From positions 4,898,001-4,962,000 of the forward strand of contig JBHGNT010000004.1 in assembly GCA_043228905.1 (NCBI GenBank): 64,000 nt of DNA, in the 5' to 3' direction. Within the stretch, counting starts at the first letter, position 1, and every line of letters starts with the position of its first letter. Source of the DNA: Azolla caroliniana (lineage: Eukaryota; Plantae; Polypodiophyta). The notes beneath the pieces were generated by a model. The model was not told where the DNA came from. It saw only the letters and a program-made list of their open reading frames with translations, and ran no database searches. This document shows positions 2,050-56,748 of this stretch, piece after piece. The position numbers were made by a program, and so were the translations under genes.

Positions 2050-3860
2050 GGTGGAATATTACCTTTCACTTACAAGTTACTACGAAGAGTTGTCAAGTTG
2101 CTTTTAAAATTGCTTATAGCATCGAGAACATAAGGCTACAGAGAATTCAACATCGATTACTGAAGGGGTGGTGGGTGCCTTTCAACAATAGAGAATTTTC
2201 ATGTAAGGGCTTGATTGGGTGACATGTTGTTAGATGGATGGAGATTTATTTCTCGAAGCAATGTGATGTTATGCCCACCACTGGAAGGTTACTTCACTCG
2301 TCGTGGGGTATACCAAAGCTATAAGGATGACATGTTATTGGAAAGTGTACCTTATATACAATATCAACATTTTTAATCGTTGTCAGATAACTTCACTCGT
2401 CGTGGGGTATACCAAGGCTATAAGGATGACATGTTATTGGAAAGTGTACCTTATATACAATATCAACATTTTTAATCGTTGTCAGATAAGTTCACTCGTC
2501 GTGGGGTATACCAAGGCTATAAGGATGACATGTTATTGGAAAGTGTACCTTATATACAATATCAACATTTTTAATCGTTTATGGAGATCAAAGTTTAACA
2601 ATGTGGTCATACCTCGCAAGGTTCGGATGGTTGTTTGTTCGATCTGCGCGAGTTTAAAAAGCTTGGCAAAGAGTGGGACAACAGATGAAGAAATAACAAA
2701 ATATAAGACTTTATTGAGAGGAAAGCCAAGCGTTGGGAAGATCTAAAGCTATGCACCATCGTCAAAAAGTGCTTCAATCACCAGAAAGATACACGTGCTT
2801 GATTATAGATGGGATGGATCAGAAGAAAACTTGTTTGCCACATTTTCGAAGATTGCCCAAGGATATTGGAGATGAATGCCTAGTGCAGATGCACTTAGTA
2901 GGATGTCTTTTGTATTGTCAGACAATAAGGCCTCAAGTGTTCTTAACTTATCCAAATATCCACAACGACCCCAATCTTACACTTACAGTCATGCAAAGAG
3001 TTCTAATGAGTTGGCAAGGTTTACTCCCACCAGTACTATACGTGCAACTTGACAACACGGCGAGAGGAAACAAAACTCAACTGTGTTTGGTTACTTGAGC
3101 ACGTTAGTAGACAAGGGTATTTTCAAAAAGATTAAGGTCAACTTCTTGCTAGTTGGTCATACACATGATCACATAGAAAAAATGTTAAGTAGGTTCTCCA
3201 AGAAATTAGCGAGGTACGATGCTTTCACACTTCTTGTGCTATCAAGGTTGATCATTGAAGCTTATATCCCAAGCCAGATGTACAACATTTAGATGAAGTA
3301 TATGATTTCAAGCGCTTCTGTTTGGATGGTGATGGGACTGGATGTAGGGTTCTTGCTCCGCTTAATAATATAAGTTTTAACCACGTCTTCGTCCAAAAAA
3401 GTGTGGTCGGTCACAAACAAACCATGTTGTATGCCAAACAATACTCATCTAGTTCGCAATGGGAGCCACAAGATGTATGTAGGCTCTTATTGCATTTCCC
3501 AAATGCAATAATCTATGGTCTTCATAGAACATTTGTAATAATCTATGGTGCAATAATCATAGGGTTGTTGGTAGTTCAATTGAAGAGCAAAATATATATT
3601 GGATGCGGTGCATTGAAGAAAAACAGAAAAATATTGAGTGAACCAAAAAGTACGATGGTGATCAGGATGTGGATTGGTGGGATGTCTTCTTTAATCATCA
3701 ACATACAATATTAGATAACCACTTTATAGGGTACTGGCCACTACAAAATCAATTCGAATGGGCGCTTGGTGGCCCATCAATGGAAACTGCATGACTCCTT
3801 TACAACCACTAGATAATCTTGAATTGAATACTCTAGTTTGTCCATGACAAAGAGATATTT
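2050..3860 (+). pseudogene. Decayed Sola-like (probably Sola1/DUF7869-type) DDD transposase, 5' part
   Basis: Motifs IIDGMDQKKTCLPHF, LYVQLDNTARGNK, FLLVGHTHDHI in ORFs 2733-3098 and 3083-3292; frameshifts; interrupted at 3860 by the next element. Confidence 0.6.
2293..2580 (+). repeat. 99-bp tandem repeat, about 3 copies
   Basis: TTCACTCGTCGTGGGGTATACCAA recurs at 2293, 2392 and 2491. Confidence 0.95.
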
Positions 3861-4200
3861 GGGTCGAAGCATGCTACGGTGTACCAACTTTTGGCCAAAA
3901 ATTTAGTACTAAATCGAAGAAGAAAATAAACATTAAAAATTGTAAATAAGTTTCAAAAAACAAAAAACAAATTCATTACGTCACACTCGAATGCACAAAG
4001 ATATTGTACGTCACACTCGAAATGTCCCTAGGCCATATTTAATACATTAATTGTTGCCCCAGTCTCCTAGGTAGAGTTGTACGAAAGCACACCTGGAGAA
4101 GGTATCCATTGTGACAGTTGGTCAGTCTCAGTATCTCTCTCTCTCTCTCTCTCTGGTATGGGTAGTCGAACGTGTCAATTGGTATGTCTCTCTCTCTCAC

Positions 4201-4262
<62 letters not shown>

Positions 4263-4553
4263 GTCTCGAAGTTGTCAGACAGACAGTGGCAGAAAGTTAA
4301 AGAAAGACGACATATATATTACAGGTCTATCTCTCTGTTTCTTTCTTTCACTCCACCTTCGATTCTTTCTGTTTTTTTCTTTCAAAGCTCTGTTTCTTTC
4401 TTTCTTTCTGTTTCTCTCTCTCACTCCACCTTCGATGCTCTGTTTCCCCGCGTAGCTGTTCTTGTGTTCCCCTCTGTGCCAGGTTCGATCTCTGAACGCA
4501 GAGATTTTTGTTTCCCCTGCTCGTTGTATGTGTTGTTGATTTTCCTTCCTTGT

Positions 4554-4845
4554 GTATGCTCGTTTGTTTCCTCTGTCTATGCTCGTTTGTCTCCTCTGCA
4601 GCAACCTCGTTTGTCGAAATCAACACGGTCTGGTACCTCTGCAAGTTGTACAACCTCCAGGTATTCTCTGTGTTGCATGCCCAATACTCAATGTTTTCTT
4701 TTTCTGAATGTTTCCTGTCTGTCTGTATGCTCGTTTGTTTCCTCTGTCTATGCTCGTTTGTCTCCTCTGCAGCAGCCTCGTTTGTCGAAATCAACACGGT
4801 CTGGTACCTCTGCAAGTTGTACAACCTCCAGGTATTCTCTGTGTT
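4554..4845 (+). repeat. Direct repeat of about 120 bp at 171-bp spacing, downstream of (CT)n microsatellites at 4134-4260
   Basis: GTATGCTCGTTTGTTTCCTCTG...GGTATTCTCTGTGTT at 4554 and 4725. Confidence 0.9.
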
Positions 4846-5194
4846 TTTGTTTTCTCTGTGTTTCTCTGTGTTCCTTTTAAAAATGTATGAAAATATTTTG
4901 ATCGAGGTGGTTGTGTGTTAGACATGTTTGTACATGCAACGTAAATGGAGTTGGCTATGATGAGTTGCTATGTTTTCGTTTTGTTCTTGTTTCTTGTCCA
5001 TCTGTTTTATTTTGTGTGAGTTTGACATGGATGAGTGTTTTTCCGACTATTTTGGGTTTTTGTGTGTTTGACATGGCTTGTACGTGGGATGTGATGGAGT
5101 TGGCTATGATGATTTACAATGTTTTCGTTGGCTTGTGATGGAGTTGGCTTGTGTGTTTTACGATGTGATGGAGTTGGCTTGTACATGCGATGCG

Positions 5195-5303
5195 ATGATT
5201 TACAATGATTTACAATGATGGAGTTGGCTATGATGATTTACAATGATGGAGTTGGCTATGATGATTTACAATGATGGAGTTGGCTATGATGATTTACAAT
5301 GGA
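5195..5303 (+). repeat. 28-bp tandem repeat
   Basis: GATGGAGTTGGCTATGATGATTTACAAT at 5217, 5245 and 5273. Confidence 0.9.
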
Positions 5304-5449
5304 GTTTTTTTCCGACTATTTAGGGTTATTGTGTGTTTGACATGGTTTGTACATGCAATGAGATGATTTGCTATGTGTTGATGGTAATTGCTTGAGTTTT
5401 CTTCTAGTACATGCATATTCATTCCCTGAGAATTGTGTTGACTAGGACA

Positions 5450-8400
5450 ATGACGAGAAGGACACCCATAAAGAAGACATTGATGAAAGAGAAAGTGAAG
5501 ACACCAGTGAAGGAAGGAAGAAGGACACCCATGAAAGAAAGCAAGAAGACACCCACAAGAGAAAGGGTGATGAATTCATCAACACAGAGAAAGAAGATGT
5601 ACCACTCCATCAGTCGAGACACACCTCTTGGATGGAATTATTTCCTTCGAGCACGACCTGACGTGTATCCAGAGCTGAGAGAGTGGTTGTTGAAAACCTG
5701 GGGGTCAGCACATCCCGACACAAGGCGAGGATTCCACATAAGTGGTTTGAAGAGGGAATACATGAATTTATTGAAGACGAGATACGAACATGTTTATGAT
5801 ACAAATCAAATCACTAACAATGAGGTGGGTACTGTTTTTGCACGTGCTTTTGCATGTGAAGTTCAAGGTGGCATTGACGTAAATTGGGAAGATTTTAATC
5901 GGCACCGGTCAGAACATTACAAAGGGTCCTCCAGTACCAACACTGGCTTGAAGTCATCTGGAACCTCTCATGTGGATATTCTAGCTATAACACCTATCCA
6001 CCAAGTTCTAGAGGCAAAGGTACGGGCCACAATGACTGAAAAGCATGAACAGATGATGGCCGGTTGCATAGCTTCTATGAGCTCAAGAATACAAACACTA
6101 CTTGCTGATTTGGAAGCAGTTAAATCAGCTGAGATATAGGCAGAAAAGAAATTTTCTTCAATAAAAACTACATATGAATGGATTGCATCGACAATCCAAA
6201 ATTCAGAAAGTGAGGTCTTGAAAGAGGAGTTGAAGAAAGAGCTAAACAATATGGGCACTCAATTAGGTTCACAGATGAGAGACCTTGATACTTGCAGGAA
6301 TGCACATGAAGAAATAGATAATAAGTTGTCAGCCTTAAAGTTGCATTCTGAGAACCTTGCATGCTTGATGCAGGATTTAAAACAAAATGGTTTTGATACT
6401 TTGTGTCCATCTGTAATTGAGCACCCAAGTGGTATAGAAAGTACCATTATTAGTATAGCTATATCACGGTATTGGCTTTAAAAGTTATTTATTTCTACTT
6501 CTTTGGTATAAATAAGTGAGCAACTAATATATTATAACTTGTGTTTGCAATCTTCCAGGTGTATATTTTGTGGCCTTGGATTCAAGCTGGAGGCTATGGA
6601 TGTTGTGATTACACCATGCTTGCACACATATCATGTGCTATGTGCTAAGTATCATTTTGAGAAAGAGAATACATGTATGGACTGTAAAACTACAATTGCG
6701 GCTGAGTGGTACTATGCTTGGGGTTTAAAAGTACACCCGTACGGTATGTGGCTCTACTATTCTATTGTTTGTATTATATGATGTCAATTAACATTTGGAC
6801 TAGAACTAGTGTATGCTACAATTCATACTTCAAATTTAGTGTAATCTCTAACAACTATTATGTGGAACCCTAATTATGTGGGTTAGTATTGGCAGTACTC
6901 TTAATATATAATTGGTATGTGTAGTTGAAGGGATATTTTCCACAATTAGTAGTACTAAAAGGGAACCAGGTACAACATCGTCCAATCTATATTGCAACTT
7001 GCCTAGTATTAGTTTAGTAAACACTATACTTATAGTACACTGTTGTCTGTTAACATTGTTTGTGTAACTTGGGAATTAGTACTAGTAATGTAATTTGGGA
7101 ACAAGGTGTATAGTAAATTGTTGAATAATAGTACAATTATTGTAATTTGGAAATGAGGTGTGTCAAACACATATCACGTTTAGTACTAATACTGTTCAAG
7201 ATTAATACTGTTGGTGTAATTAGTACAAGTTATGTAACTAGGTGTGTAGAAGACATATAATGTTTAGTATTACTTGTGTGCAAAATACCAATCTACATTT
7301 GTTGGATTAGTACTTAGTAAGTACTACATGCTTCATGAATAGTACTAGTTCTGTACTTTGTGAACTAAGTTACTAGTACATTGCTCATGATTAATACTAG
7401 TTTTGTAATTTGGGAACTGAGTAGTACTTTGTTCCTTATTAGTACTAGTTTTGTACCTTATTAGTACTAGATCAGTAATCTAGAAAATAAGTGAGTAGTA
7501 CATTTTGTAGGATTAGTACTAATTGTGTAATTTGACTAAGTCAGTGGTACATTGTTGAGTAGTACATTGTTCAGGATTAGTACTAATTGTGTAATTTGAC
7601 TAAGTCAGTGGTACAATGTTCGGGATTAGTACTCCTTGTGTAATTTGCTAACTAAGTGAGTAGTATATTGTGCATGATTAGTACTACTTGTGTAAATTGG
7701 GAACTAAGTGAGCAGTACATTGTTCGGGATTAGTACTCCTTGTGTAATTTGGTAACTAAGTGAGTAGTATATTGTGCATGATTAGTATTACTTGTGTAAA
7801 TTGGGAACTAAGTGAGCAGTACATTGTTCGGGATTAGTACTCCTTGTGTAATTTGGTAACTAAGTGAGTAGTATATTGTGCATGATTAGTATTACTTGTG
7901 TAAATTGGGAACTAAGTGAGCAGTACATTGTTCGGGATTAGTACTCCTTGTGTAATTTGCTAACTAAGTGAGTAGTATATTGTGCATGATTAGTACTACT
8001 TGTGTAAATTGGGAACTAAGTGAGCATTACGTTGTTCGGGATTAGTACTCCTTGTGTAATTAGGTAACTAAGTGAGTAGTATATTGTGCATGATTAGTAC
8101 TACTTGTGTAAATTGGGAACTAAGTGAGCAGTACATTGTTCGGGATTAGTACTCCTTGTGTAATTTGCTAACTAAGTGAGTAGTATATTGTGCATGATTA
8201 GTACTACTTGTGTAAATTGGGAACTAAGTGAGCATTACGTTGTTCGGCATTAGTACTCCTTGTGTAATTTGCTAACTAAGTGAGTAGTATATTGTGCATG
8301 ATTAGTACTACTTGTGTAAATTGGGAACTAAGTGAGCATTACGTTGTTCGGGATTAGTACTAGTTCAGTGATTTAGGAAATAAGTGAGTAGTACATTGTT

Positions 8401-10498
8401 CAAGATTAGTACTACTTATTAATTTGACTTAGTCAGTGGTACATTTTTCGGGATTAGTACTTGTGTAATTTGGTAACTAAGTGAGTAGTATATTGTGCCT
8501 GATTAGTACTACTTGTGTATGTTGTGCATGATTAGTACTAATCGTGTAAATTGGGAACTAAGTGAGCAGTACAGTGTTCCTTATTAGTACTAGTTCAATA
8601 ATTTAGGAACTATGTGAGTAGTACATTGTTCATGACTGGTACATTGTGTAAAATGGGAAGCAGCTCTTGTGACCTACATTATATATTTTAGATGATGGTA
8701 CTAACATTCAAGGTTTTTTTGTTTCTTGCAATGAATGTTGTAGTGTCAAGCAACTCCACGCCAGGGAAGGTAATGGAACAACCAGCCCCTGTGCCTAAAC
8801 CCTCAATATCTGCTGCACATTCCAAGGTTCAGGGACCATCATTACCAATAACCTATGATTTTTATGATGAGGATGAATGTATGAGAAGGGCCATTGGAGC
8901 ATTCCCCAAGCTCCGGTCAACATCAAGAAATAGAGCCCACTAAGAAGAGAAATGCAGTTTCTTTACAAATAGAGCCCAGTAAGAAGAGAAATGCTGCAAG
9001 AATGTTGTATGGAAACGGCAAGAAAGGCAAAGTTGAATGCAATGGTGAGTCATATAAGTTCTCACCTGTCTGGAGCATTGTCAACCTAATCCATTGTCTA
9101 ATACCATGTACTTGTGTTACTAGCTGATGATGAAATGATATTTGGTGACGGAGATACGAGTCCAAAACCTGATCATGAAGACGAATTTATCACACTCCCA
9201 GGTACACGTCAAAAGCCAGACTTTGAAAACAATGATTTAGCTCATAACAACCCTATTCTTGTTGTTATTATAGATCATAACAACACTGTTGAGCACCTAG
9301 ATGTTGTGGAGAAGATGACCGAGCCCACCACTTGCAATGGGGTATCTACGGCTGTACAGTATGACGATGTAACATTAGGTAAAAATGTGGCCCTAAACCC
9401 TATGTTCATTGTTTGCAAACTTTTGAGTATTTGAGTTCATACCAATATTCTTTGGAATCCCACTAATTAGGTTTACAAGAGCAGTCTGATTCCCAACTGC
9501 AATCAAATGAATCGGGAACTTCATGGAGCACAAGTGCAGAATCAGATTCCCATCAGAGTCAGAATCAAATTAACCTTTGCAAGGAGGCAGACTCTAGAAG
9601 CACATCTTCCACACATGAGGATTGTGAGAAAAACGAAGCATTCATATGTGAAGAGCAGCTGGCATGTACAAACAACACTATGTCTAAAGAAGCCTATGAG
9701 TGTGGAAAGAATATGGCAAGTACTGAAGAGAAGATTGAAGCCCATGAAGAGTGTGGAAAGAATATGGCAAGTACTGAAGAGAAGACTGATTGTACTGATA
9801 ATGTGGCAAGTGCTGAAGAGAAGACTGATTGTACTGATAATGTGCTAGTACTATCTAAAGATTCCCATGAGGATCATGGAAAGAACATTGCTAGCAATGA
9901 AGAGGAGCTTGATTGTACTGAGAATGTGCTAGTAGTGTCTTGTGAAGCCCATGAGGATCGTGGAAAGAACATCGCTTTCCCTGAAGATAAGCCTGATTGT
10001 ACAAAATCCCATGAGGAGTGTAGAGTGAACAACGTTACTAATGAAGGTGGGCCTGATTGTACTCAGAGCGAACAACGTTGTCTTAAGAATGAGGTGACAT
10101 CCATCGTACAAGAGGAGTTGACCATGACTACTGCCACGGTCCACATACAGGAGTCTAATAAGAACGAGTGTATAGGCATCGGTGATGATGATAGGGCAAT
10201 AAAGATCGCTAGGAGTACAAGCATTCAGGAGATGAGTGATAATTTGTCTATCGACAGCACCTTTGTGGATTTGTGTACAAGCATTGCAGTTGCAGAAAAC
10301 ATAGTTGCTCTCTCAAGCTTGCCACCAGTACAAGGTGCCCGCGCATCCACGCCTGTCTCTGATGCCTCTGATGATGAAGTGCCACTTAGTCAGCTCATAC
10401 CTAAAGGCTTTAAGATAAAGAAGAATGTAAAATCAGAAAAATCTGGCACCAACAACAAGCGCATTACAAGATCGGCCAAGTTACCCTCTAGTGCCTGA
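5450..10498 (+). pseudogene. Multi-exon accessory gene of Sola2-like copy 1: basic N-terminus, coiled coil, RING-H2 finger, acidic repetitive tail
   Basis: Exon 5450-6468 (one in-frame TAG at 6137), GT-AG intron 6469-6558, RING-H2 exon 6559-6743 (CIFC-x15-CLHTYHVLC-x10-CMDC), intron 6744-8743, phase-compatible exon from 8744; later exons to 10498 less certain; homologous to 46436-53425. Confidence 0.7.
7540..8630 (+). repeat. Intronic minisatellite: 104-bp dimer of two diverged 52-bp monomers, rich in AGTACT
   Basis: GTACATTGTTCGGGATTAGTACTCC at 7715, 7819, 7923 and onward, alternating with GTATATTGTGCATGATTAGTA. Confidence 0.95.
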
Positions 10499-11612
10499 TT
10501 GTCTTTCGATTGTACTTGAACTTTAGTTGTTAGTGATGTCTGAAATTGAACTATTTGGATACCAAAATACTGTTTCAATTGCCAATGTAAAAAATCCAGT
10601 TCATGAATCTGAAATAGTTATACCAGTGTGAAATCAAGTTCATGTTTAAGGATTGCTTCTATATTTTGCTCATCAACATATATCAAAAACAATGGGAATA
10701 TACTTTTTGATCTAAGTATTCTTATTTTACAACGTTTTGTTTCTTTTTTGAGATCATCTCCTAATCCTCGCAAAGTCTTTCAGTCTATTGTAGATAAAAT
10801 GCTTGAAAGTCTTCTTAGCTTGCTAGGAAAATTTAGGTTTTTAGGTGTTGATGATGAGAAACAGAAAATATCGAGTATCGGGTGTTATTGAAGATATCCT
10901 GAAGTATAGACTGTTTCATCAATCCCATTTGGACGGTAACCAGAATGTGTGCAAATTGTTGAAGCAATGTGGGCCATATTTTGATGATATCATCCCAAAG
11001 GATGAATCATCCACTAACAGTAGTAAGGAAACACATACCTTTTTGAGCTATCACAAATTATTGTTTCAGAAGTTGGATTATTTTGTTAAGGAAAGGAAGG
11101 TTTGTACTTTAAAATCCATAGCCTGGATATTCAGGACTTATATACAAGAAGTAAAAACTCAGATGGCTTCACAGGACATATCATGAAACAAAAAAGGATT
11201 CTGAGAGAATAATTTTCATTGTTGTCTTCACAGAATTCATCGCCCCCTTTGAAAAATGAACTTACAGTAGAAAATCTTACAATATTAAAGTCTTTAATGA
11301 ATTCAACTAACAATCTTCTCTTCGTAGCAAAAGAAGAGCAGATTTATGTGCCAACAGAGGACACACCAACTCTGCAAAACTCCTATGCTCAAATAACATC
11401 AGGAAACATGAGCAATATCGGCAATGAAGAAATCCAAGTCCTGTTGATAACAACTAATATATTATGAAAGATAAGTACAAGTGGTTGAGAGGCATAAACC
11501 CTTTGGAAGAAAGACGAAATATATCAATTCATTTGTCAATCATCAAAATTAATAGTGAACTCCAAGTGGATGTTTTTCAGTTTTCTAGTACAATGTATTG
11601 ATAGGGTGACTT

Positions 11613-14600
11613 TCAAGCATTAAATAGAGAGACCTCCCCTAATATGTGCTCATGAACCTCTTGGGGGACCTTGTAGACAGTGTTGTATCCCTTAACCTTG
11701 TGCTTTGCTTGAGTCATATTGAATTTGATCGCAAGAATGGCATCAGCGTAGATTATTGCGATGGGTGCTTCTTTTAGTAATGCATATGTGTTCTTGCACT
11801 GCGGCAACTTTGCATAATAGTTTCCATACACGACAGACTCACCAACGTTGAAATTGTTGCCCCAACCATCCCTCACCACTTCTTTCAATAATGTCTTTCC
11901 TTGCTTGCACACCACAATGTAGTAGTCTTCTAAATCTTCATTCTGAGAATATTTGAGCACTGCAAAATGATCTCCAACTTCCAATAAAACTGCCAAGTCT
12001 TGATTTTGGTTGTAGTATACAATATCGTTTGAATGCACATCCTCTTCAATATCATCTTGTAGTTCAGGCTCAAGCTTCTGCAGCTTCCAGGGCTCCACGA
12101 TTGATAGGTTGATGCATTTATCCCAAGCTTCATCTAGACACATGGAACAAAAGCATGATAAACTACGGAGTAACAATTGGGTTGTGTCCTTGCGGCTAAA
12201 CCCTAACACACAATGGGTGCTGCGTGTCCCTTTCACGGTTTTACAACCATATGATTTAGTTCTATCGACCTCATCAGCGCGAACTTCAACAAACAATCTG
12301 TTCTTACCATCATTTGACATCTTCCATGTTAGCCACTGCACAACATCATGTGCATTTTGTAACTTAGCGCCATTATTATCCAACTGCTCACTTGTAAGGG
12401 CACGTTTGATCACAGCCCCCGCGCCATCATGCTCTCCTTTTCCATGTCCAGACCCGAAGTAATTCCATTGCATACGAATATTGAATAAGGAGAAATACCT
12501 GCTTTGGTGAGTACAAGATGAGTACAATACTATGAGTACAACATGAGTAAATACTGATTTAGTACAATTCTCTTAAGGACGGACAATACTATGAGTACAA
12601 GATGAGTACTTTATATCCTCCTGTAAACACAACATAGTACAGATACAACACACAACATAGTACAATGTGTCTATGGAGAACCCTTCACATGGATTAAAAC
12701 ATAATTAGTACAATTCTCTTAAGGACGGACAATACTATAAGTACAAGATGAGTACTTTACATCCTTTTGTAAACACAACATAGTACAAAACCAACACACA
12801 ACATAGTACAATGTGTCTATGGAGAACCCTTCACATGGATTAATCGATACTTAGTACAATTCTCTTAAGGACGGACAATACTATGAGTACAAGATGAGTA
12901 CTTTACATCCTCCTGTAAACACAACATAGTACAGATAGGACACACAACAAAGTACAATGTGTCTATGGAGAACCCTTCACATGGATTAAAACATAATTAG
13001 TACAATTCTCTTAAGGACGGACAATACTATGAGTACAAGATGAGTACTTTACATCCTCCTGTAAACACAACATAGTACAGATAGGACACACAACAAAGTA
13101 CAATGTGTCTATGGAGAACCCTTCACATGGATTAAAACATAATTAGTACAATTCTCTTAAGGACGGACAATACTATAAGTACAAGATGAGTACTTTACAT
13201 CCTTTTGTAAACACAACATAGTACAGAACCAACACACAACATAGTACAATGTGTCTATGGAGAACACTTCACATGGATTAAAAGTTACTTAGTACAACAT
13301 AATACAAACAAAATTAGTATGCATGCATCCATTCACAAGTGCAAGATTCGAATAGTTAGAAACATAATTAGTATGCATCGATGTGACTAGTACTGTTTGT
13401 TAATAGTTACAAACATAATTAGTATGCATCCACTAACACAAGATTTACTTCCTTACACATTGCATGATAAGTATTAAACATATGGATTAAAAATTACCTG
13501 GCGATAAAGTAGAACGATCGTGCCGCCTTAAACTGCGAGGCAGCACCATCAGACCAAACCCAATGACGGTTAAAGGTTAACCCTAGAGAAAATAAATCTG
13601 CATGGTGAAGCTTAAAACAATGTTGAACAAATAGTGTATCATGCTTTTTATCATCTGAAATGTAAAATATTGATTTCTTATGTAACTCACCGTCTTGCCT
13701 CCAATAGCAAATATGTACAAGTATTGTACATTGATCATTGTACCAATGCATTGATTGAACCTCATTTTGAACTTTAAATGTATAGTTTTCTGCAAAATCA
13801 ATAACGGATACAATGACACCCGTTGGTAAGTTATTAATACATTCCTTGAATTGTGAATTTTGCCAATAACTCCGGAAGTTATGTGGAATAAACTCCCCAA
13901 GTTGTTTCTTAAATTCTGAGACAAGGGTAGCAGCACATGTCTCCTTATATACTTCCTTGATACGCTTAGTTACAACTCCCTTGCCAATATTTTCAGTCAC
14001 ATACTCCAAATATTTCCATTTCACGATATGACTATTTCCCATATCAAGCTCCTGCCTACAAAATAATGGTAGCGGACAAACCTTACATGTTCTTAATAGA
14101 CATGTACGACGATGCCACTCACACGATGGTTCTTTTTCACAAACACAAGACCTCCATAGCTCAGAAACGGATGCATAAGTCATGTTTCGTGCATTACACC
14201 TATTATCCTCCCCATTTGGTCTACAAATCTCACAAGTGCAGACACATAATTCCCCATGTATACCCTTAGAATCAGTACGCATTGCATTCACAGAAACCCT
14301 TAACATGTCCATCTTCACATGGTACACACAACAACATGTATTCCTCTCATTTAATTTTCTAACATAAAATGGTTTCAAACCTTGGAACTTGCGGAATCCG
14401 ACAGTCAAGCTTGGATGTTGGTCTTTAAAGTTCATGTACAATTCAGCCTACATCAACCAATATATATAGCAAACATTAATATACACTTGGTCAAAACAGA
14501 AAGTTATGGAATGTGAATTGATATAAAAAAATGGAATACCTCTGTCATCTCCAAGAAGTGTCTAGGGTGAATCTGGTACATACCCTGACTTATTCGTTGT

Positions 14601-15166
14601 CTACACACGTCCTTCTTATTTGGTGAGACACGCGTATTTTTGGCCCAAAATGAATCCACTTTCTCAATAATCTCTTGAGATAAGGCATCACATCGTCGTC
14701 TACGTCCCGACCCCAGCCACTTGAATTTGCTTGAGTGTATATTTCGGCGATGTTTCCTCAAGTTCCTTCTTTGAATACCCAGGGCTAAGGCAACTTTAGT
14801 ATCACTATATTTTTTTTCTCTCACACCATTCACAACCATGTGTAGGGCTGCCCTCTTTGCAGCAAGTTTGTCTAAGCTCTCTACACCTTTCACTAAGTCT
14901 AGGGATGACTTCATAGACTCCACAATCTCTTCTGAAACACATTGGTCCCTAAATTTTATTCTCTCCATGTCTTCATTCAAACTTTGATGGTGTAACACTC
15001 TACAAATAATATCCCTACGATCCTCTTCACTAAATCTCTTCGTTATTTCTACCAAATAACGAACTATGTGAAGAACCACTCGTCTCTTAGTCCTTTCAGA
15101 TATGCATGAGTTACTTGACAACTCACTCTCGTTAGGAACCCCCATTCGGTCACTAGATTTATCCAC
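11613..15166 (-). CDS. Spliced Sola-type DDD transposase (copy 1), apparently open across three exons
   Basis: Exons ~15166-14540, 14447-13498, 12498-11613 joined by in-phase GT-AG introns (MTE|AELYMNF; FIAR|YFSLF); motifs CCCVYH, VIDFAENY, WSDGAASQFK, GHGKGEHDGAG, SCFCSMC; start codon uncertain. Confidence 0.8.
12520..13295. repeat. 146-bp tandem repeat, about 5 copies, in transposase intron 2
   Basis: AGTACAATTCTCTTAAGGACGG at 12561, 12707, 12853, 12999 and 13145. Confidence 0.95.
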
Positions 15167-15199
15167 AAAAATTAAGTGTCTTGCGAAAGTAGTTAATGT

Positions 15200-15995
15200 T
15201 ATATAGACTCAACCAAGAAAACACAATCAAATGTTTTTAAATGTGGCCTGCAAAGTGAGAAATATTTTGTTTCAAACATTAGAATTACATATCAAATATG
15301 GCAAATGTCAATTCTAAAAATTTAGTACTGAAATATGAAGAAATGAAACATTTTAGTACTGAAAATGAAAAAAATGGATGGAAGGAACCTCCAATGGTGG
15401 AGGGAGCGTGGATATATAGACTCAACCAAGAAAACACAATCAAATGTTTTTAAATGTGGCCTGCAAAGTGAGAAATATTTTGTTTCAAACATTAGAATTA
15501 CATATCAAATATGGCAAATGTCAATTCTAAAAATTTAGTACTGAAATATGAAGAAATGAAACATTTTAGTACTGAAAATGAAAAAAATGGATGGAAGGAA
15601 CCTCCAATGGTGGAGGGAGCGTGGATATATAGACTCAACCAAGAAAACACAATCAAATGTTTTTAAATGTGGCCTGCAAAGTGAGAAATATTTTGTTTCA
15701 AACATTAGAATTACATATCAAATATGGCAAATGTCAATTCTAAAAATTTAGTACTGAAATATGAAGAAATGAAACATTTTAGTACTGAAAATAAAAAAAA
15801 GGATGGAAGGAACCTCCAATGGTGGAGGGAGCGTTGGATATGCCGCCTCGATTTGGTGGAAGGAACCTCCAATGGTGGAGGGAGCGTGGATATGCAGCCT
15901 CGATTTGGTGGAAGGAACCTCCAATGGTGGAGGGAGCGTTGGATATGCCGCCTCGATTTGGTGGAAGGAACCTCCAATGCCACCTCGATTTGGTG
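15200..15995. repeat. 213-bp tandem repeat x3 running into a 52/53-bp repeat x3-4
   Basis: GACTCAACCAAGAAA at 15206, 15419, 15632; GGAAGGAACCTCCAATG at 15805, 15858, 15910, 15963. Confidence 0.92.
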
Positions 15996-16547
15996 GAAAA
16001 AGCCCCAAATCACCACGACATCAACTGCAATCGGTGGAAGTACGAAAGTCGTTGTCAAAGAAGTGACTATTGGCTGCTACCTAAACCCTCAGAACAGTCT
16101 CTGTACCTCAACCGAAACCTAACAAAAACAGAAACCCTAAAAAAATCAGAAATCCTCAACTCAAACTCTCCAACCAGACATGGATGTCTGAGATTTAGAT
16201 TGAAGGAAAATCAGAAACGTGACATGGATGTCTGTGATGAAAAGCTCAGAGAGATAGAGGAAGAACAGTATGAGGGGAATCGCCAAAACGACGTGAGGGG
16301 AAGCGCCAAAATCGACGTGAGGGGAAAATAGCCCCCAAAATGGAAGAACATCTCCTCACGTGTTCCCCCCACTCCTTCTACAGTAAATGACACTTGTACT
16401 ACAGTCACCCCACTCTCCAAAATCGATTTTCTTTTTCTCTAATTTTTTTTCTGAATTATTCAGTACTAACAGTATTGAAAGTACTGACAATTTTTGTGGC
16501 CAAAAACAGTACTTTTTTGGTACCCCGTAGCGTGCTTCGACCCATTT

Positions 16548-17087
16548 ACGTGGACCAAGATTATCACATTAGCTGGGGGTGATAAGTTGGGCCATCCATT
16601 CTGGATTGCCAAAATCATTGAAATTTTTAAGGATGATGAAGGCAATCAAGTAAAGTCTATTATGGTTCATTGGTATCATACCTCTTCCAAAGATGCATTT
16701 ACTGGGAAGTACTCTTTAGAGATGGTTAAGGATGTCGAAGGCACAAGCAGAAAGCGAAGAAGAAAGAATCTACCAAGCACGTCTAGTCTAGCACTTGATA
16801 ATGTCGACAAGTATGTGTATGAATTCTCCTTGACGAAAACAGGCCATCTAAGACAGACTACAATCAAGATAATAAAAGAGAAAATCCCAGATGTGCCTAT
16901 TGACGCAACACAGAGACGAACAAGGAGCATGTCTCATAATCATGATGACGTTGGATTGCAATCGGATGAAGACAATGCATTGGTTGCTAGTGATGATGAG
17001 GATGAGACCTCGCAAAGCTCTTCTACTTCATTGGGTGGGTTTGAAGGGGAAGGCGTATCTCTGGGTAGTGATGGATCTCATATATGA
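16548..17087 (+). pseudogene. 3' part of the interrupted Sola-like host transposase
   Basis: Resumes after the ATTT TSD; GHPFWIAKIIEIF...IMVHWYHT domain and acidic tail; element appears to end near 17355 where old copia sequence begins. Confidence 0.55.
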
Positions 17088-17846: not shown

Positions 17847-20800
17847 TACACGGTTACACGCTCTCTCTCTTCTTGCACCAACAAGAATAACAACGACTCT
17901 AAAAGTTTGCCCTAAGTCATATTTATACTAATATGACTTTTCGGCTATTTACACATATAGCCATGATGGACTCTCAGAAACATATTTACGAATATGTCTC
18001 TTCATCCGGTGAGCACTCCTCACCGGGTCTGCACCATCCGGCTCTCCTCACCGGGTACTCCTCATCCGGTTCTCACCGGGTCTGCACCATCCGGCTCTCC
18101 GTAGCCGGGTACTCCTCATCCGGTTCTCACTGGGTCTGCACCATCCGGCTCTTCGTAGCCGGGTACTCCTCATCCGGTTCTCACCGGGTCTGCACCATCC
18201 GGCTCTCCGTAACCGGGTACTCGTCATCAACACTGTTCTTCTCCTGAGGGACCTGTCTCCCAACAAACTCCCCCTTCACTCCGGCATGGGGTGTCTTACT
18301 AGTCCGATCCTCTTCCGGCATGCATCCAGCTTGTCGGGTATCAGCACTTTGGTCAGCATATCTGACCCGTTCTCGGCCGTGTGGATCTTCGTCAGTGCGA
18401 ACTCCTGTTCATCTACTCTTTCCCGGATCCAGTGATATCTTCGCTGGATATGCTTCGTCCGTGAATGGTAGGCCGCATTCTTAGCAAGATGGATGGCACT
18501 TTGACTGTCACAATAGAGTCGGTATTCATCTTGTCGGATACCGAGCTCTCCGATGAAGTCCTTCATCCATAATATTTCCTTGCTGGCTTCCACAGCCGCC
18601 ATGTACTTCACCTCCGTGGTTGACAATGCAACTGTCTTCTGCAGCGTCGATTGCCACGAGACAGCTCCCCCTGCATATGTCATTACATACCCGGATGTAG
18701 ACCGGCTGGTATCCACATCAGCCGACACCGTCAAGTTGAGGTTTTCCGGAGCCGAATCAGAGACACATGTTTGAAGTGCCCTTCAAATACCAGAGTATCC
18801 ATTTGACCGCATTCCAGTGCTCCTTGCCGAGATTGCTCATAAACCGGCTCACCACTCCGACTGCGTATCCTATATCCGGTCGGGTACACACCATTGCGTA
18901 CATCAACCTCCCGACGGCAGAGGCATATGGAATCTTCATCATATCCGCCTTCTCTGCTTTCGTCTTCGGGCTTTGCTTACTGGATAGCCTGCAGTTTGCC
19001 GGAAGTGTCGATCCGACCGGTTTCGCATCTGACATGTTGAGCCGCTCAAGCACCTTTGTCACGTACTTCTCCTATGACAGCCATAATTGCTTCATTGACC
19101 GGTTCCGAATAATATGCATCCCCAACATCTGTCTTGCCGGACCCAAGTCTTTCATTGAGAAGGTCCGGTTGAGAGCCTTCTTCAGCATCCGTATTTTGGC
19201 TTGGTCCTGTCCGACGATCAACATGTTGTCCACGTACAGAAGGAGTATTAGGAAGTCACCTCCTTCGAACTTCTTCACAAACACGCAGTGATCGGCCTGC
19301 GTCTTGTGGTACCCTTGATCGGTCATGAAGGAATCGAACTTTCGGTACCATTGTCGGGGAGCCTGCTTTAGTCCGTACAGGCTCTTCTTTAGCTGGCATA
19401 CCAGGTGCTCCTTCCCTTTCTCCACAAATCCCTCCAGTTGCTGCATGTAGATCTCCTCTTCGAGGTTGCCGTGAAGGAATGCCGTCTTCACATCTAGCTG
19501 TTCTACCTCGAGGTCCATGCTTGCCGCTATACTCAGCACCGTCCGGATGGAGGTCATCTTTATTACCGGGGCAAATATCTCGTCAAAGTCCACGCCCTTT
19601 TTCTGCTGGAACCCCTTCACCACGATCTTGGCTTTGTATCTCGGGGGGTTGCTGGCATCTCCCGGTTTCAACTTGTACACCCACTTGTTTCGGAGTGCCC
19701 GCTTTCCTTTCGGCAACTCCACCAATTCGTACGTATGGTTCTCATGCAGGGAATCCATCTCATCCTGCATGGCACTTAACCATTTGCGGCTGTGGGTGTC
19801 ATCCTTCGCTTCTTCAAAGCTTTCCGGCTCCCCCTCATCGGTCAATAGAACATGCTCTGCATCCGGAAATCTCCGGGGCGCCCTTCTCTCTCTGAGAGGA
19901 TATCTCTGTCTTCGGGCTTCGGTAACCGGCTCCTCCATTTGCTCTTCATCCGAATCCGATTCGGGGTCTATGCTGGTTCCGGTTTCAGCTTCCTCTACTT
20001 CTTCTTCAGCCTGTTCGGTATCCTCACCGTAACCGACTAGTCCCTCGAGTGCCGGTCTCTTGCCGGTTGGATCTGCTCATCGTAGAGTCGATCCTTACCG
20101 GTCGACTCGGAGTTCATTATCTTCTTCTCCGACTCCCAGTCGGCGAGCGTCTTGTCCTCCATGAAGATAATATCTCGACTCCGGAATACCTTCTTGTCGA
20201 CCAGGTCCCACACTCGGTAGCCGAACTCATCGTCACCGTAACCGAGGAATATGCATGGCCGGGTCTTTGGATCTAACTTTCCTCTCCGGTCCTTAGCTAC
20301 ATGCACGTATGTGAGACACCCGAATACCTTCAGATGCCGGTAGGATACTTCCTTACCGGTCCATACTCTCTGTGGCGTGTCTCCGTCCAAGGGTACTGAG
20401 GGTGATCTATTTATCACATATATCGCCGTCGACAATGCCTCAGCCCAAAACTTCGTGGGTAGTTTTTCATGCGCTAGCATGCTTCGGACCCTCTCCATTA
20501 TGGTCCGGTTCATTCTCTCGGCCAGTCCGTTTAGTTCCGGCGTCTTCGGCACGGTAAATTCGAGCCGGATTCCCTTCGAGCGGCAGTACTCCTCGAACTG
20601 CCCCCGATATTCTCCTCCGTTATCTGCTCGAACCGCCTTCAGCTTCTGGCCGGTTTCTCTTTCCAGTCTCGCGTGGAGCTCTTTGAAGACGGATAACACC
20701 TGATCCTTCGTCTTCAACGGTGTGGCCCACAGCTTCCGGTTGTGGTCATCTATGAACGTCACGAAGTATTGCGCTCCGGCATGTAACTTCGTGTCTACTT

Positions 20801-23089
20801 GACACACATCCGTATGCACCAACTCCAGTGGTGCATTATGTCTCATCGGTGGCCTTGGTCGGAAGGAGGTCCGGTTTTTCTTACCGGCCAGACAATCAGT
20901 GCACTTCTCCAAGTGCACGTTCTTCACTGGAATGAGGTTGTTGTCTACAACCCTCTTCATCCCCTTCTCGCTCATATGACACAACCTCTTGTGCCACAGC
21001 TCACCGGCAGTGTCGGATGCCACGTTCACTTCTTCCAGACATAACCGGGCATTCATCAAGTACAGTGTGTTGACCTTCCGGGCCCGAGCCATAATCTGGC
21101 TCCCTTTGCTAAACTTCATGACACCGTTCCGGATGCTACCCGTGTAGCCTTCATCATCTAGCCGACCGGCTGATATCAGATTCAGACGAACCTCCGAAAC
21201 GTGTCAGATATCCTTCAGTAGCAACTTGCATCCGGTTGGTGTTGTCAGCCACACGTCTCCTATGCCGACAATTCGGCATGTTCCTTCATTCCCCATTCGG
21301 ACACAGCCGTGATCACCGGCTGAGTAGGATGAGAAGCATTTCCGGTCCGGGGTAAGGTGGAATGACGCTCCGGAGTCGACCACCCAGGTCATCTCGTCGC
21401 CGGCAAGGTTTATCTCACTCTCCTCGGTGATGAGCATCAACTCTTCTTCACTTGCCACGATTGCCGTCGTCCCCTTCCGGTCCGTCCCCCTCCGGTCTTT
21501 ACCGTTTCAGTCTGGTATCCGCTTCGAATCGGTATCGTCGGTTTCCTTGTCCTTTCGGAAATGCCGACAGTTCTTCTGGAAGTGTCCCGGCTTGCCGCAA
21601 TAGAAGCAAGTAGGTCTCCCCCTTGACTTTGACCGTGTCCCCGACTTTTCCCGGTTCTGGGGACTACAGTTTCTTTGTCTTCCGCGTTCCGATTCGGTAA
21701 GGAGCGCTTTGGACTCGGAGCTCGTATCTTTATCTTTCCAACACGCCTCCTCATCTAGCAAGCTCGACTTTACTCTTACTAGGGATAACCGCTTTCCTTC
21801 CGGCCCGGCGTTGCCCAAAGTGACAACCAACGTCTCCCAGCTATCCGGAAGGGAACCGAGCAGTAGTAGCACTAGTACCTCGTTGGCGAGAGGTACTTCC
21901 AATGATGTTGCCTGGTGTATCAGCCCCTAGAAGGCATTCATGTGCTCCGCCATGCTGGAGCCATCTTGGTACCAGAGTCTTACTAGCTTCCGGAATACCG
22001 AAACCTGATTAACAACATTTTTGTTTTGAAACATTATGCCGATCTTCTCCCAAAGCTCATGAGCCTTGCTCTCTTCATTGAAGTTGTTGTATAGGCTCAT
22101 GTCGATGAAGCACCGTATGTACGCCGTTGTCTTCATATGCATCACCTCCCATATCGTGGCATCGATTTTGTCCGGTCTCTTGTCCCCAAACTGAACCGGC
22201 AACCAAAGATCTTTAACCACGAGCATGTCCCTCATCTTCGACTTCCACACCGAATAGTTGGAGCCCGTGAGTTTGAACATGCCTCCCAACGAATCGTTCA
22301 TTTTCTATGTCGTTTCGCTCTGATACCACTTGACAGGAACTGCACGCTCCCTATACGCAACGCTCGGCCACAATCGAGCTTAGAATCATACAGAGAAAAC
22401 GGGAGATAAATGCACGACACAGTGAAGAGAAGAGTACACAGGATGTTTACGTGGAAAACCCAAACTAGGGAAAAACCACGGCAGCCCATAGGCTGCAAAC
22501 TATCACTATGTTAGAATGTACAACAGTGAGTTCACGGAGGCAACGACCTCGTGCTCACGATGTTCGCCACAGGCGGCAGTTTCAACAGAGGCAACGACCT
22601 CTTTCTCTCTCTCTCTCTCTCTCTCTCTGTACACGGTTACACGCTCTCTCTCTTCTTGCACCAACAAGAATAACAACGACTCTAAAAGTTTGCCCTAAGT
22701 CATATTTATACTAATATGACTTTTCGGCTATTTACAAATATAGCCATGATGGACTCTCAGAAACATATTTACGAATATGTCGCTTCATCCGGTGAGCACT
22801 CCTCACCGGGTCTGCACCATCCGGCTCTCCGTAGCCGGGTACTCCTCATCCGGTTCTCACCGGGTCTGCACCATCCGGCTCTCCGTAGCCGGGTACTCCT
22901 CATCCGGTTCTCACCGGGTCTGCACCATCCGGCTCTCCGTAGCCGGGTACTCCTCATCCGGTTCTCACCGGGTCTGCACCATCCGGCTCTCCGTAACCGG
23001 GTACTCGTCATCCGGTTTCGGCCTCGGCCGAGTTTGTTCACCAACACTGTTCTTCTCCCTTCCCATCCTGAGGGACCTGTCTCCCAACA
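17540..23089 (-). mobile_element. Ty1/copia element A (Tnt1-like), full structure but decayed ORF
   Basis: LTRs 17540-18265 and 22331-23089 (TG...CA); TSD CTTGC; PBS TGGTATCAGAGC (22317-22328, tRNA-iMet); PPT AGGGGGAG; gag-PR-INT-RT-RH split by stops and frameshifts; 54-bp tandem units in U3. Confidence 0.95.
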
Positions 23090-28243: not shown

Positions 28244-30644
28244 ATGCATTGGCGGAGAACGAGACCTGGGACCTGGTTGACGCACCAAGAGGGGTAAAAC
28301 CGATCGGGTGTAGGTGGGTGTACAAAGTCAAGTACAACACCGATGGCTCGGTCAACTGGTACAAGGCTCGGCTAGTGGCAAAGGGCTACGCGCAGAAACA
28401 CGACATCGACTACGATGAGACGTTTGCGCCGGGCGCGAAAATGACGACCGTCCGAGTTTTGCTCGCAGTAGCTGCGATGAAGGAGTGGCACTTACATCAG
28501 ATGGATGTAAAGAATGTGTTCCTGCAAGGTGACCTTGAGGAACATGTGTACATGGTACAACCCCCCGGATTTCACTCTGGAACGAACTCCTCGGCAGTAT
28601 GCCGACTGAAGAAGTCCCTTTACGGACTGAAGCAAGCCCCGCGTGCCTGGAACGCGAAGATCACGCAACAACTGCGTCGGATGGGCTTCATCACGTCAAA
28701 ATTGGACTCTTCCCTGTTCATCCGAAAAGGTCGACTCAGACCGGTTAGTATTTTACTATATGTTGATGACTTGGTCATCACCGGCGCCGACCTAGGTGAA
28801 ACCGACCGCGTGAAGCTCTAGCTTGCGGCATCGTTCGACATGAAGGATCTGGGGGATCTTCATTACTTCCTCGGGATCGAAGTGATCCGTACCCCCGAAG
28901 GCATATTGATCAACCAACGTCATTACGTGCTGAGTATGCTCTTCAAATTCGGGATGGCCGACTGTAAGTCCGTCTCGACTCCTCTGGACAGAACCGTCAA
29001 GCTTCGTCCCGATACGGGAAAGGTATGCGACCCGACGAGGTTCCGACAAATTGTTGGAAGCCTCAGTTATCCGGTCGGAGTGATCAGTCAGTTCATGGCG
29101 CGACCTATCGAGGACCACCTTCAGTGTGCGCAACACATACTTCGGTATGTCAACGACATTAAGGACCGGGGACTGCTATATCGGACCGGTGCATCCGCGC
29201 AGTTAGTCGGCTACACCGATGCTGATTGGGTTGGCAACGCCGCCGATCGCCGATCCACGTCCGGATACGTGTTCTCCCTTGGGGGTGCCGTGATCGCGTG
29301 GAGCAGTAAGAAGCAGCCGACAGTTGCACTGTCGAGCACCGAAGCTGAGTACCGAGGAGCGGCTGTCGCAACATGCGAAGCCATATGGTTGAAGCGGCTA
29401 CTTAAGGACCTGCAAGAGGAGGTGTCAGATCCGACGACGATCTACTGCGACAACCTCAGCAGCATCCAACTCGCAAAAAACCCTGTTTTCCACACATGGA
29501 CCAAGCACATTGAGGCGCACTACCATTTCGTCCGTGAGCGTGTCCTTTCTGGTGAAGTCGAACTTCAGTACGTTCCGACGGATCGGCAGACTGCCGACAT
29601 CTTCACCAAGCCTCTTGGTTTGGACAAGTTGTGGCAATTCTCAGGTGCGCTCGGATTGCGTCACCTCGACGTGCCAAACTTGAAGGGGAGAACAGTCCTG
29701 AACGACCAAGCAAGGCAGCAGGAAAGGAGTGGAGACTGCGACTCGGTTGTCGAGTTCGACTTCGGATCGGTGGAAGAAGCTGAGGGCGGACCCGCGGAAA
29801 AGTCCAGAAGCGGACAGAAGGGGAGCAGCCGAAGGAGAGAGCCGAAGCCAACCACGCATGGGGAAGATGACACCATCGAGGGCGAGAAGACCGAAGACAA
29901 GTTGGAGACAGCCAACTCGGACGAGAGCGACGAGTCGGTTTGGATGTTTGATTCAGATACGTTGAATCAACCGAGGCCCAAGCGAAAGAAAAGGCAGCAG
30001 GAGAAGCGTCAACACCGCAACAGTAGAAGAGCTGATAAGGGCCACATGAGCAGACAAGCCGACCGGAAGGGGCGAAGCGCGCGGAGTCGAACAGGTTGTG
30101 GAGCGCGAGCGAGGCGTGAAGCCAGGAGGAACCGGAGCTGTGAGCCCGAAGATCCCAAAGAGCCTCAAGTTGAGCTTGAGGGGGAGTGTTGAGAGACAAG
30201 CTCAACATCGGCCGGATCGGCTGAAGAGGCCGAGGACCGGATCGGTTGGGACCGATCGGTTAGGCCGAATGCGTAAACCGGTACGCAGACCGGTGCGTAG
30301 GTAGGGCCGGATCAGTGCGTAAACTGGGAGGCCGTTAGGAAAGATATTCCGTGAGGAATATATTTGGGAGTTAGTGTAGGAGCTCTTAATGAGCATTGAA
30401 GTACTGTCAGTACTTCGGTCAGTCCTTCTAGGACTTGTACAAAGTGTTCATTGAACACACATATGCATAGAATGGTGTATAGAGATTGAGCACTTTTTTT
30501 TAATATACTTCTTGTGTTTTCTCTCTCTCTCTCTCTGTCTCTCCCGAGTATACTGCGTAAGCTCAAGCTCTCCATTCAACCTGAGTTTTCTTCCTTCTGT
30601 TCGGTCTTCATACTTGCTTCCGCACGTTACTTTTTACAATAACA

Positions 30645-39435: not shown

Positions 39436-39849
39436 GAAAGGGAAATATTGTATTGTAGAGTAAAATGGATTACAAGGAGTAGGCAATAGACTACTACAAA
39501 ATGGCGTTGAACCAATTTAGGTTTGGGATGATTGATAGATGGGTGAAAGCACGCTACAGTGTACCAACTTTTGGCCAAAATTTTAGTACTAATTCGATGA
39601 GGAGGAAAGAAAAATAATCCAATATTTGGGTTAAAAAAGTTGAGGTTGTTGGGTCACAGTCCCAGGTAATGTTGTACGGAAATCTTAACTATAGAAGATC
39701 TTGAGTAGTCACTCAATTATGAATATAGTAAATATGTCTCTCTCTCGCTCTCTCTCTTGGCACATATGTTCATCTTGAACTGTCAGTTAGTCTCTCTCCC
39801 CCCCTCTCTCTCCTTCCCCCTTCTACTCATTGATTCCCGAGGTTTGTAC

Positions 39850-40135
39850 CTCCTCTCCCCCTCTCTGTCTCTCTTCTACCTTCTGTACAGGTCTCTGCAG
39901 ACTCCAAGCGCGTCACTGCTCGTCGTTCGTACCTCCTCTACCCCTCTCTGTCTCTCTTCCACCTTCTACACAGGTCTCTGCAGACTCCAAGCGCGTCATT
40001 GCTCGTCGTTCGTACCTCCTCTACCCCTCTTTGTCTCTCTTCCACATTCTACACAGGTCTCTGCAGACTCCAAGCGCGTCACTGCTCGTCCTTCGTACCT
40101 CCTCTCCCCCTCTCTATCTCTCTTCCACCTTCTGC
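39850..40135 (+). repeat. 83-bp tandem repeat x3
   Basis: ACAGGTCTCTGCAGACTCCAAGCGCG at 39887, 39970 and 40053. Confidence 0.9.
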
Positions 40136-46308: not shown

Positions 46309-46435
46309 GTTTTTGTCTCATTGTTGTCCTTATTATGCGTGATTTAATCATATGATGAAAAAAGACAGTTGTGATTGATCTATTGTTATTTTCTATTGTT
46401 GTGTGTGTGAGGTGAAGAAGAGAGATAGGACTCAA

Positions 46436-55034: not shown

Positions 55035-55325
55035 CTAATTTCTTGTTATTTCAGCACCTAATTAATCAGAATAAGTGGTTAATACGTCATAAAATAAACA
55101 TAGTTAATACCCCATAGCATAAATATCAACCGGAAATCGGATAAACATTTGAGAGTTTGCCACAGTCATATATTCCTTTTCCAAAACAATTAACTTTTAA
55201 GAAATAATTGCATCAATTAACTTGTTGTTTGAAATACATAAGTTTTATGACTCACAAGATGAGATGCATGTATACTATTGACATCATGGAGTCTTCTTAA
55301 CTAGAGTTTAAGACTAAGATAAGTA

Positions 55326-56714: not shown

Positions 56715-56748
56715 TTTCGAGGCATGTGATGTGAGTGTCATTATGACA

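What the first reader, a model, noticed from the sequence alone, without database searches (positions are those of the whole stretch)
3861..16543. Giant two-gene Sola2-like DNA transposon in a plant genome
Seen: about 27-bp TIRs with GGG...CCC ends, 4-bp TSD ATTT, and a three-exon transposase with DFAENY / SDG / HGKGxxD motifs that stays in frame across both introns. Known: GRG...CYC ends with non-TTAA 4-bp TSDs define the Sola2 subgroup, described mainly from animals and protists as elements of a few kb. Inference: this is a 12.7-kb plant lineage with a second dedicated gene and possibly an intact transposase.
Basis: partly seen in the sequence, partly recalled or inferred. Interest (0 to 1): 0.8.

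Follow-up and report, generated by a model that had tools for sequence, protein, structure and literature searches.

The report
Fern-type Sola2 transposon with RING partner
This is a real, recently multiplied 12.7-kb jumping gene, likely from a fern, whose transposase frame is unbroken and which carries a long-conserved second gene (broken in this copy) whose protein likely binds a short palindrome repeated inside the element and would help it stay active against host silencing; large plant elements of this group are already listed, but we found no description of this second gene.

Summary
Window 3861-16543 has 27-bp TIRs (25/27 identical), an ATTT target duplication and an open three-exon DDD transposase with Sola2 motifs. 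The TIR occurs 202 times in G000; 23 of 24 paired copies have exact 4-bp TSDs, and the youngest transposases differ by 2-5 of 2463 nt. The second gene (five exons: unknown domain, coiled coil, RING-H2, acidic tail) is open in 10 of 20 other copies but broken here. It is under purifying selection and faces the transposase in a family only 42% identical. The element also carries a captured piece of the host URB2 gene. Three unrelated tandem arrays each hold AGTACT, while the distant family holds TAGCTA, the pattern known from VANDAL/VANC; binding and anti-silencing are untested. Novelty is lower than claimed: a 10.9-kb moss Sola2 with a similar TIR is in a 2025 supplement, and two-gene Sola elements are known. 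The scan noted this layout before on other DNA (e1-10618503, e1-9882303), and the VANC lead came from there. Verdict: new variant of a known kind.

The parts
3857..3860 (.). left 4-bp target-site duplication ATTT
3861..3887 (+). left TIR, 27 bp
5450..6468 (+). gene 2 exon 1: basic tail, unknown domain (5582-5929), coiled coil; premature TAG at 6137-6139 in this copy
   Evidence: exon ends inferred from frame and conservation
6559..6743 (+). gene 2 exon 2: RING-H2 finger
   Evidence: Pfam zf-RING_2 E 4.5e-5, 24.1 bits, under the 27.3 cut-off
7556..8519 (.). 52-bp tandem array (18.7 copies) in gene 2 intron 2; unit holds AGTACT
8744..9044 (+). gene 2 exon 3; 26-bp deletion near 8900 shifts the frame in this copy
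9124..9378 (+). gene 2 exon 4
   Evidence: join to exon 5 seen in one contig of run X1
9471..10498 (+). gene 2 exon 5: acidic, repetitive tail and stop
10635..11448 (+). captured fragment of the host URB2/Npa2-like gene (79-92% identical to G000:C8:7030969-7031983)
11613..12498 (-). transposase exon 3: HGKGxxD (third Asp, D543) and a C-terminal BAH-like domain (about 11652-12011)
12559..13297 (.). 146-bp tandem array (5.1 copies) in transposase intron 2; unit holds AGTACT
13498..14447 (-). transposase exon 2: Cys-rich region, DFAENY (D419), SDG (D502)
14540..15145 (-). transposase exon 1 from the first ATG (frame open from 15208)
15200..15841 (.). 213-bp tandem array (3 copies) upstream of the transposase; two AGTACT per unit
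16517..16543 (-). right TIR, 27 bp; AGTACT at 16462, 16480 and 16508 just inside it
16544..16547 (.). right target-site duplication ATTT
2718..3860 (+). 5' part of an older, broken DUF7869 transposase gene into which the element inserted (not part of it)
   Evidence: Pfam DUF7869 E 4.9e-15
16548..17087 (+). 3' continuation of that interrupted gene (not part of the element)

Best explanation
The element is a young copy of a multi-copy Sola2-type cut-and-paste transposon, likely from a fern, with an open DDD transposase and a facing, long-conserved partner gene whose protein likely binds the family's own palindrome arrays and would keep the element active against host methylation silencing. Shown: ends, 4-bp TSDs, copy number, youth, both gene structures, purifying selection on gene 2, its conservation in a distant family, family-specific palindromes in unrelated arrays, CG/CHG-biased mutation, and capture of a URB2 piece. 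Inferred from established knowledge of DDD/E transposases: the enzyme cuts at the TIRs and inserts with a 4-bp stagger. Inferred and untested: the 116-aa unknown domain reads the motif, the coiled coil multimerises along the array, and the RING-H2 acts as a ubiquitin ligase on chromatin or silencing factors there. This copy would supply transposase but need gene 2 from another copy. Odds: Sola2 with a dedicated partner gene about 0.9; the binding plus anti-silencing mechanism about 0.4.
For: TSDs: 23 of 24 paired family-A copies, 10 of 10 of subfamily A' and 3 of 3 of family B. Transposase open in 8 of 21 copies; six of the open copies, the window's included, differ by 2-5 of 2463 nt. Motifs and their order match the published Sola2 alignment, read by eye; Asp spacing 83/41. 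Gene 2 open in 10 of 20 other copies. dN/dS against three family-C copies: 0.25-0.34 for RING, 0.29-0.34 for the coil, 0.42-0.50 for the unknown domain. The same domain order faces the transposase in family B (transposase 42%, RING exon 41%, E 5e-8). AGTACT 49 times against about 9 expected, 33 distinct contexts; family B has TAGCTA 226 times and AGTACT 5 times. Units of 52, 146 and 213 bp share little beyond the motif, and family C keeps the motif in units of other sizes. VANC motifs lie in tandem repeats in introns and upstream of the transposase (PMC5735166, passages). One contig each shows a spliced transposase join and a spliced gene-2 join.
Against: No binding or methylation data. Copies carry C-to-T change at CG (28.6 per 1000) and CHG (36.6) against CHH (3.4) in all nine regions, so they are methylated in the long run; the arrays themselves were left out of that count. 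The motif also lies beside both TIRs, where a transposase would bind. Motif and protein co-vary across only two independent lineages (A/C and B). Three metagenome loci with the domain that were scanned (L103, L114, L137) show no strong palindrome excess. Their link to gene 2 is weak at first pass (E 0.016-0.55; hhalign probability 29%), and no RING pattern was found in those frames. The RING scores under Pfam's cut-off. RNA support is thin: run X1 is only guessed to be RNA, and raw-read depth over transposase exon 3 was under 3.
Confidence: 0.45

Rival explanations
1. The palindromes are binding sites of the transposase itself (end recognition and self-activation), and gene 2 acts through protein contacts only, for example as a ubiquitin ligase that tunes transposase level or removes a host factor.
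For: AGTACT stands at 3905 and at 16462-16508, beside the TIRs; family B has its own motif beside its TIRs. The transposase ends in a BAH-like fold (best Z 7.2, rmsd 3.3, 89 aligned). A 2026 preprint reports transposases as sequence-specific activators (10.64898/2026.08.24.746577, abstract only).
Against: Most sites lie in introns kilobases from the ends. The TIRs of families A and B stay similar while the internal motif changes.
Confidence: 0.3
2. Gene 2 binds the motif but as a transposition cofactor, like the second proteins of CACTA (TnpA) or Harbinger elements, with no role against silencing.
For: Subterminal motif copies; strict linkage in the families examined; both genes open in 5 of 21 copies, all among the youngest. 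The TnpA and Harbinger roles are recalled.
Against: A RING finger and intronic arrays are not needed for synapsis. The animal Sola2 entries of the published alignment are given as transposases only. Gene 2 evolves faster than the transposase.
Confidence: 0.18
3. Gene 2 is a captured host passenger without a role, like the URB2 piece.
For: The element does capture host DNA. Gene 2 is broken or incomplete in 11 of 21 copies.
Against: dN/dS under 1 in all domains against family C; conserved place and orientation at 42% transposase identity; spliced join seen. The URB2 piece, by contrast, is absent from the two C copies and the B copy tested.
Confidence: 0.05

Closest known systems
Ceratodon purpureus 'Sola2' cluster_4006 (PMC12973397 Table S2; main-text passages and two supplement rows seen)
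   Same: Plant host, about 10.9 kb, 26-bp TIR starting GGGT with the AAGCA and GCTA blocks, 4-bp TSD, recent activity.
   Different: 2 copies against about a hundred here. The row names no second gene; its sequence cell was cut, so I could not test whether it has one.
Sola2 group (Repbase; alignment in PMC3627910 Additional file 10, read in full; Bao et al. 2009 not held, recalled)
   Same: DFAENY, Q.E.QS.HW, ISDD..HD, SDGAASQ.K, HGK..DG.G and GTR..H motifs in order; 4-bp TSD; GGG...CCC ends.
   Different: Introns, 12-13 kb, a facing RING gene, motif arrays, no AT-rich TSD bias (36% GC in 20 TSDs).
Fanzor1-carrying Sola2 elements of Dictyostelium and Polysphondylium (PMC3627910, passages)
   Same: Sola2 transposase plus a second gene; 4-bp TSD.
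   Different: The second gene there is a TnpB-like protein; here it has an unknown domain, a coil and a RING.
VANDAL/VANC anti-silencing system of Arabidopsis (PMC5735166, passages)
   Same: Extra, fast-evolving gene; family-specific short motif multiplied by tandem repeats in introns and upstream of the transposase.
   Different: MULE transposase; VANC has DUF1985 and DUF287, not found here; binding and demethylation are shown there and untested here.
Sola1-1_Ec32 of Ectocarpus (PMC12477816, passages)
   Same: Giant Sola element (21.5 kb) with an accessory gene on the opposite strand, proposed to act on its own chromatin.
   Different: Sola1, brown alga, ParB-methylase cargo.

Membership tests
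Sola superfamily | 4-bp TSD | tested here: met
   23 of 24, 10 of 10 and 3 of 3 pairs; feature from PMC10741241
Sola superfamily | DDD transposase between TIRs | tested here: met
   D419, D502, D543 at the conserved Asp columns of the Sola2 alignment; catalysis not assayed
Sola2 | Transposase motif series of the published Sola2 alignment | tested here: met
   Compared by eye with Additional file 10 of PMC3627910
Sola2 | GRG...CYC termini (recalled from Bao et al. 2009, paper not held) | tested here: met
   GGG...CCC in all copies listed; the rule itself comes from no call
Sola2 | Groups with Repbase Sola2 rather than Sola1 or Sola3 by HMM or tree | not testable with these tools
   No labelled Sola1-3 sequences at hand. 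The tree of 39 homologues only puts it among Klebsormidium, Calypogeia, Ceratodon and unnamed rows, with open forks
Sola3 | TTAA target (recalled) | tested here: not met
   0 of 37 pairs have TTAA
Sola1 | DUF7869-type transposase (link to Sola1 recalled and from earlier scan notes) | tested here: inconclusive
   No DUF7869 hit for the three exons or five homologues, while the interrupted neighbour hits at 4.9e-15
VANDAL/VANC | MULE-type transposase | tested here: not met
   No MULE Pfam hit; 4-bp TSD against 7-12 bp for MULEs
VANDAL/VANC | DUF1985 and DUF287 domains | tested here: not met
   No such hit in the pieces of exons 1, 2 and 5 or in 33 homologous proteins and frames; exons 3-4 were not scanned
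VANDAL/VANC | Family-specific motif in non-coding tandem repeats | tested here: met
VANDAL/VANC | Protein binds the motif and removes methylation | not testable with these tools
   Needs EMSA, ChIP and bisulfite data
Fanzor1-Sola2 | Second gene is TnpB-like | tested here: not met
   No TnpB or zinc-ribbon Pfam hit; RING-H2 and coiled coil instead

The most novel reading that the evidence does not exclude
Sola2 elements of seed-free plants have their own anti-silencing system, unrelated to VANC: a DNA-reading domain with no match among solved folds, joined to a RING ubiquitin ligase, that co-evolves with family-specific palindrome arrays, beside a transposase ending in a BAH-like chromatin reader.
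Probability: 0.3. Interest if true: 0.8.

Novelty: new variant of a known kind. Interest (0 to 1): 0.52.

Why it matters
How DNA transposons multiply in heavily methylated plant genomes is understood for few cases, VANC above all. A second, unrelated protein-plus-array design in another superfamily would show that this solution evolves repeatedly and would offer a new sequence-specific chromatin tool. The family is young, with 5 of 21 examined copies open in both genes, so the test is within reach. If the mechanism is wrong, what remains is a well-defined young plant Sola2 family with an undescribed partner gene and a captured host-gene piece.

Tried and rejected
Bao et al. 2009 is not held, so the Sola1/2/3 end and TSD rules are partly recalled. 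Pfam gave nothing useful for the transposase exons or the unknown domain. PDB sequence searches found only coiled-coil matches for gene 2 and none for the transposase. The ESM Atlas gave no usable hit. The model of the unknown domain (pLDDT 92) had no Foldseek match at E 0.001 or better and best Z 2.8 among 48,161 chains; this does not prove a new fold. Viral contigs held no relative. No listed run that holds the stretch is on record as RNA. The plus-strand reads over 10720-11500 first looked like a third element gene; one loose end led to the single host URB2 locus, so these reads are read as host transcripts. Reads at 8867-8898 fit only 32 bp and were set aside. The first two introns of gene 2 and the first intron of the transposase were not tested on RNA. 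The tree did not resolve placement. No left end was found for the interrupted DUF7869 element. The idea that unpaired TIR matches are solo ends was rejected for 10 of 10 tested, which have a variant right TIR (15 exact matches). Literature searches for this second gene found no description; Repbase, Dfam, subscription journals and bioRxiv supplements were not searchable.

Full report
Observation. The element runs from 3861 to 16543 (12,683 bp). Its TIRs match at 25 of 27 positions and ATTT flanks both ends. The element interrupts an older DUF7869 transposase gene (E 4.9e-15), whose frame is restored when the element and one ATTT are removed.

Family and age. G000 (523 Mb) has 202 exact matches to a 19-nt TIR pattern and none to the reversed control; only the first 100 were listed, and these gave 24 inward pairs of 8.2-18.5 kb, the window's included. 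Twenty of the other pairs were fetched whole and three by their ends. Exact 4-bp TSDs flank 23 of 24; the exception matches at 3 of 4. Ten unpaired matches that I tested belong to a subfamily A' with a variant right TIR, 10 of 10 with 4-bp TSDs. A protein search with exon 2 scored 126 matches at 82% identity or more out of 1221 candidates. The transposase frame is open in 8 of 21 copies, and the window differs from five others by 2-4 of 2463 nt. Copies differ from the majority base by 0.4-2.0%.

Host. C-to-T change is about ten times higher at CG and CHG than at CHH (28.6, 36.6 and 3.4 per 1000), which fits plant-type methylation (established knowledge). A fern is likely; I did not determine the species.

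Class. The motif series matches the Sola2 alignment of PMC3627910 (Additional file 10, read in full and compared by eye), and that paper ties 4-bp TSDs to Sola2 (passages). No labelled Sola1-3 set was at hand, so the HMM and tree test remains open; my tree has open forks. A model of exon 3 (pLDDT 81) shows a C-terminal domain whose best structural matches are BAH domains (Foldseek E 7e-3; Z 7.2, rmsd 3.3, 89 residues). That is moderate support only.

Gene 2. Five exons on the plus strand with four GT-AG introns give 937 aa: basic tail, a domain without Pfam match, coiled coil, RING-H2 and an acidic tail. The frame is open in 10 of 20 other copies (one with a changed donor). In the window it is broken by TAG at 6137 (CAG in 17 of 20 others, TAG in 2, deleted in 1) and by a 26-bp deletion. 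Both genes are open in 5 of 21 copies. Four of four loci picked by a 60%-identical gene-2 homologue also hold the transposase (family C); dN/dS against three of them is 0.25-0.50 over the ordered domains and 0.15-0.16 for transposase exon 2 (these copies are decayed, which inflates the values). Against A' the acidic tail is neutral (1.08). Family B, found with a distant transposase (70 scored matches), is 11.9-12.3 kb with similar TIRs, 3 of 3 TSDs and a facing gene with the same domain and RING. Of 80 metagenome loci, most too short to test, five (four distinct) have the domain facing the transposase and one has a partial hit on the same strand; first-pass scores were weak. A profile search returned 88 representatives, two with domain, coil and RING in one frame. 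The domain models well (pLDDT 92) and matches no solved fold in my searches.

RNA. One contig of run X1 (RNA by guess) joins transposase exon 3 to exon 2 at the predicted site, a form absent from all 192 DNA loci held, and another joins gene 2 exons 4 and 5. Raw poly(A) reads were few and mostly 90-95% alike. The other joins were not tested on RNA.

Captured host DNA. Window 10635-11448 is 79-92% identical to a single URB2/Npa2-like host gene at G000:C8. It is present in A and A' and absent from the two C copies and one B copy tested. It is a fragment, with a 188-aa frame in older copies that a 7-bp insertion breaks in the window. This gives a useful contrast: recent cargo without conservation against an old partner gene.

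Motif arrays. An earlier scan note (e1-10618503) suggested a VANC parallel, which I then tested. AGTACT occurs 49 times (about 9 expected; best of 64 palindromes examined), in gene 2 intron 2, transposase intron 2, upstream of the transposase and beside both TIRs; family B has TAGCTA 226 times instead. Three unrelated units of 52, 146 and 213 bp all hold the motif, and family C holds it in units of 41-284 bp. PMC5735166 (passages) describes this layout for VANC targets. Against: only two independent lineages, no clear arrays in three outside loci with the domain, methylation scars in every region counted, and sites beside the TIRs that the transposase could use.

Mechanism. Most likely the transposase excises and inserts the element, and the partner protein binds the arrays and acts there through its RING to keep the element active (about 0.4). 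Rivals: the transposase binds the motif (0.3); the partner is a transposition cofactor only (0.18); passenger (0.05).

Known and new. Large, active plant Sola2 elements are listed for Ceratodon (PMC12973397, passages and two supplement rows); Sola is noted in a moss and can exceed 15 kb (PMC10741241, passages); a fern genome is reported rich in SOLA (PMC6786969, one passage); second genes are known in Sola2 and Sola1. PMC5751038, PMC4455052, PMC5199201 and bioRxiv 2021.09.26.461848 were seen as passages and added nothing on plant Sola2. Six searches found no description of this partner gene; Repbase and unseen supplements may hold one. The scan itself noted the layout before in this genome and in a moss-like genome. 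Verdict: new variant of a known kind, interest 0.52.

Noticed in passing
window 39541-56448: A second, older two-gene element of the same group (transposase 70-79%, gene 2 46-71% identical), with TIRs, TSD AGAT and nested Copia insertions.
   Followed up: partly
window 2267-3860 and 16548-17087: Broken DUF7869 (Sola1-like, label recalled) transposase gene interrupted by the element; its ends were not found.
   Followed up: partly
window 18276-21788, 28822-30192, 32197-36408, 41447-45598, 49844-50806: Several Copia-type retrotransposons, two with long open frames of about 1400 aa; a Gypsy-like integrase frame at 56741-57886 (labels from recall).
   Followed up: no
L070-L075 (G000:C6, C8, C9): Family B: a young, abundant 12-kb Sola2 family with a 619-aa unbroken exon, TAGCTA arrays and a NIF-like phosphatase piece in its second gene (Pfam E 9.7e-8).
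   Followed up: partly
window 11652-12011: BAH-like fold at the transposase C-terminus, a possible chromatin reader.
   Followed up: partly
L045 (G000:C4:15200668 and 15200867): One copy has two right-TIR matches 199 bp apart and is 17.8 kb with an insertion in gene 2.
   Followed up: no
P0018: The Klebsormidium homologue is annotated as one 1180-aa protein with leucine-rich repeats in front of the transposase, possibly a fused gene model.
   Followed up: no
L140:3658-4917: A RING-like frame on the same strand as the transposase in one metagenome locus.
   Followed up: no
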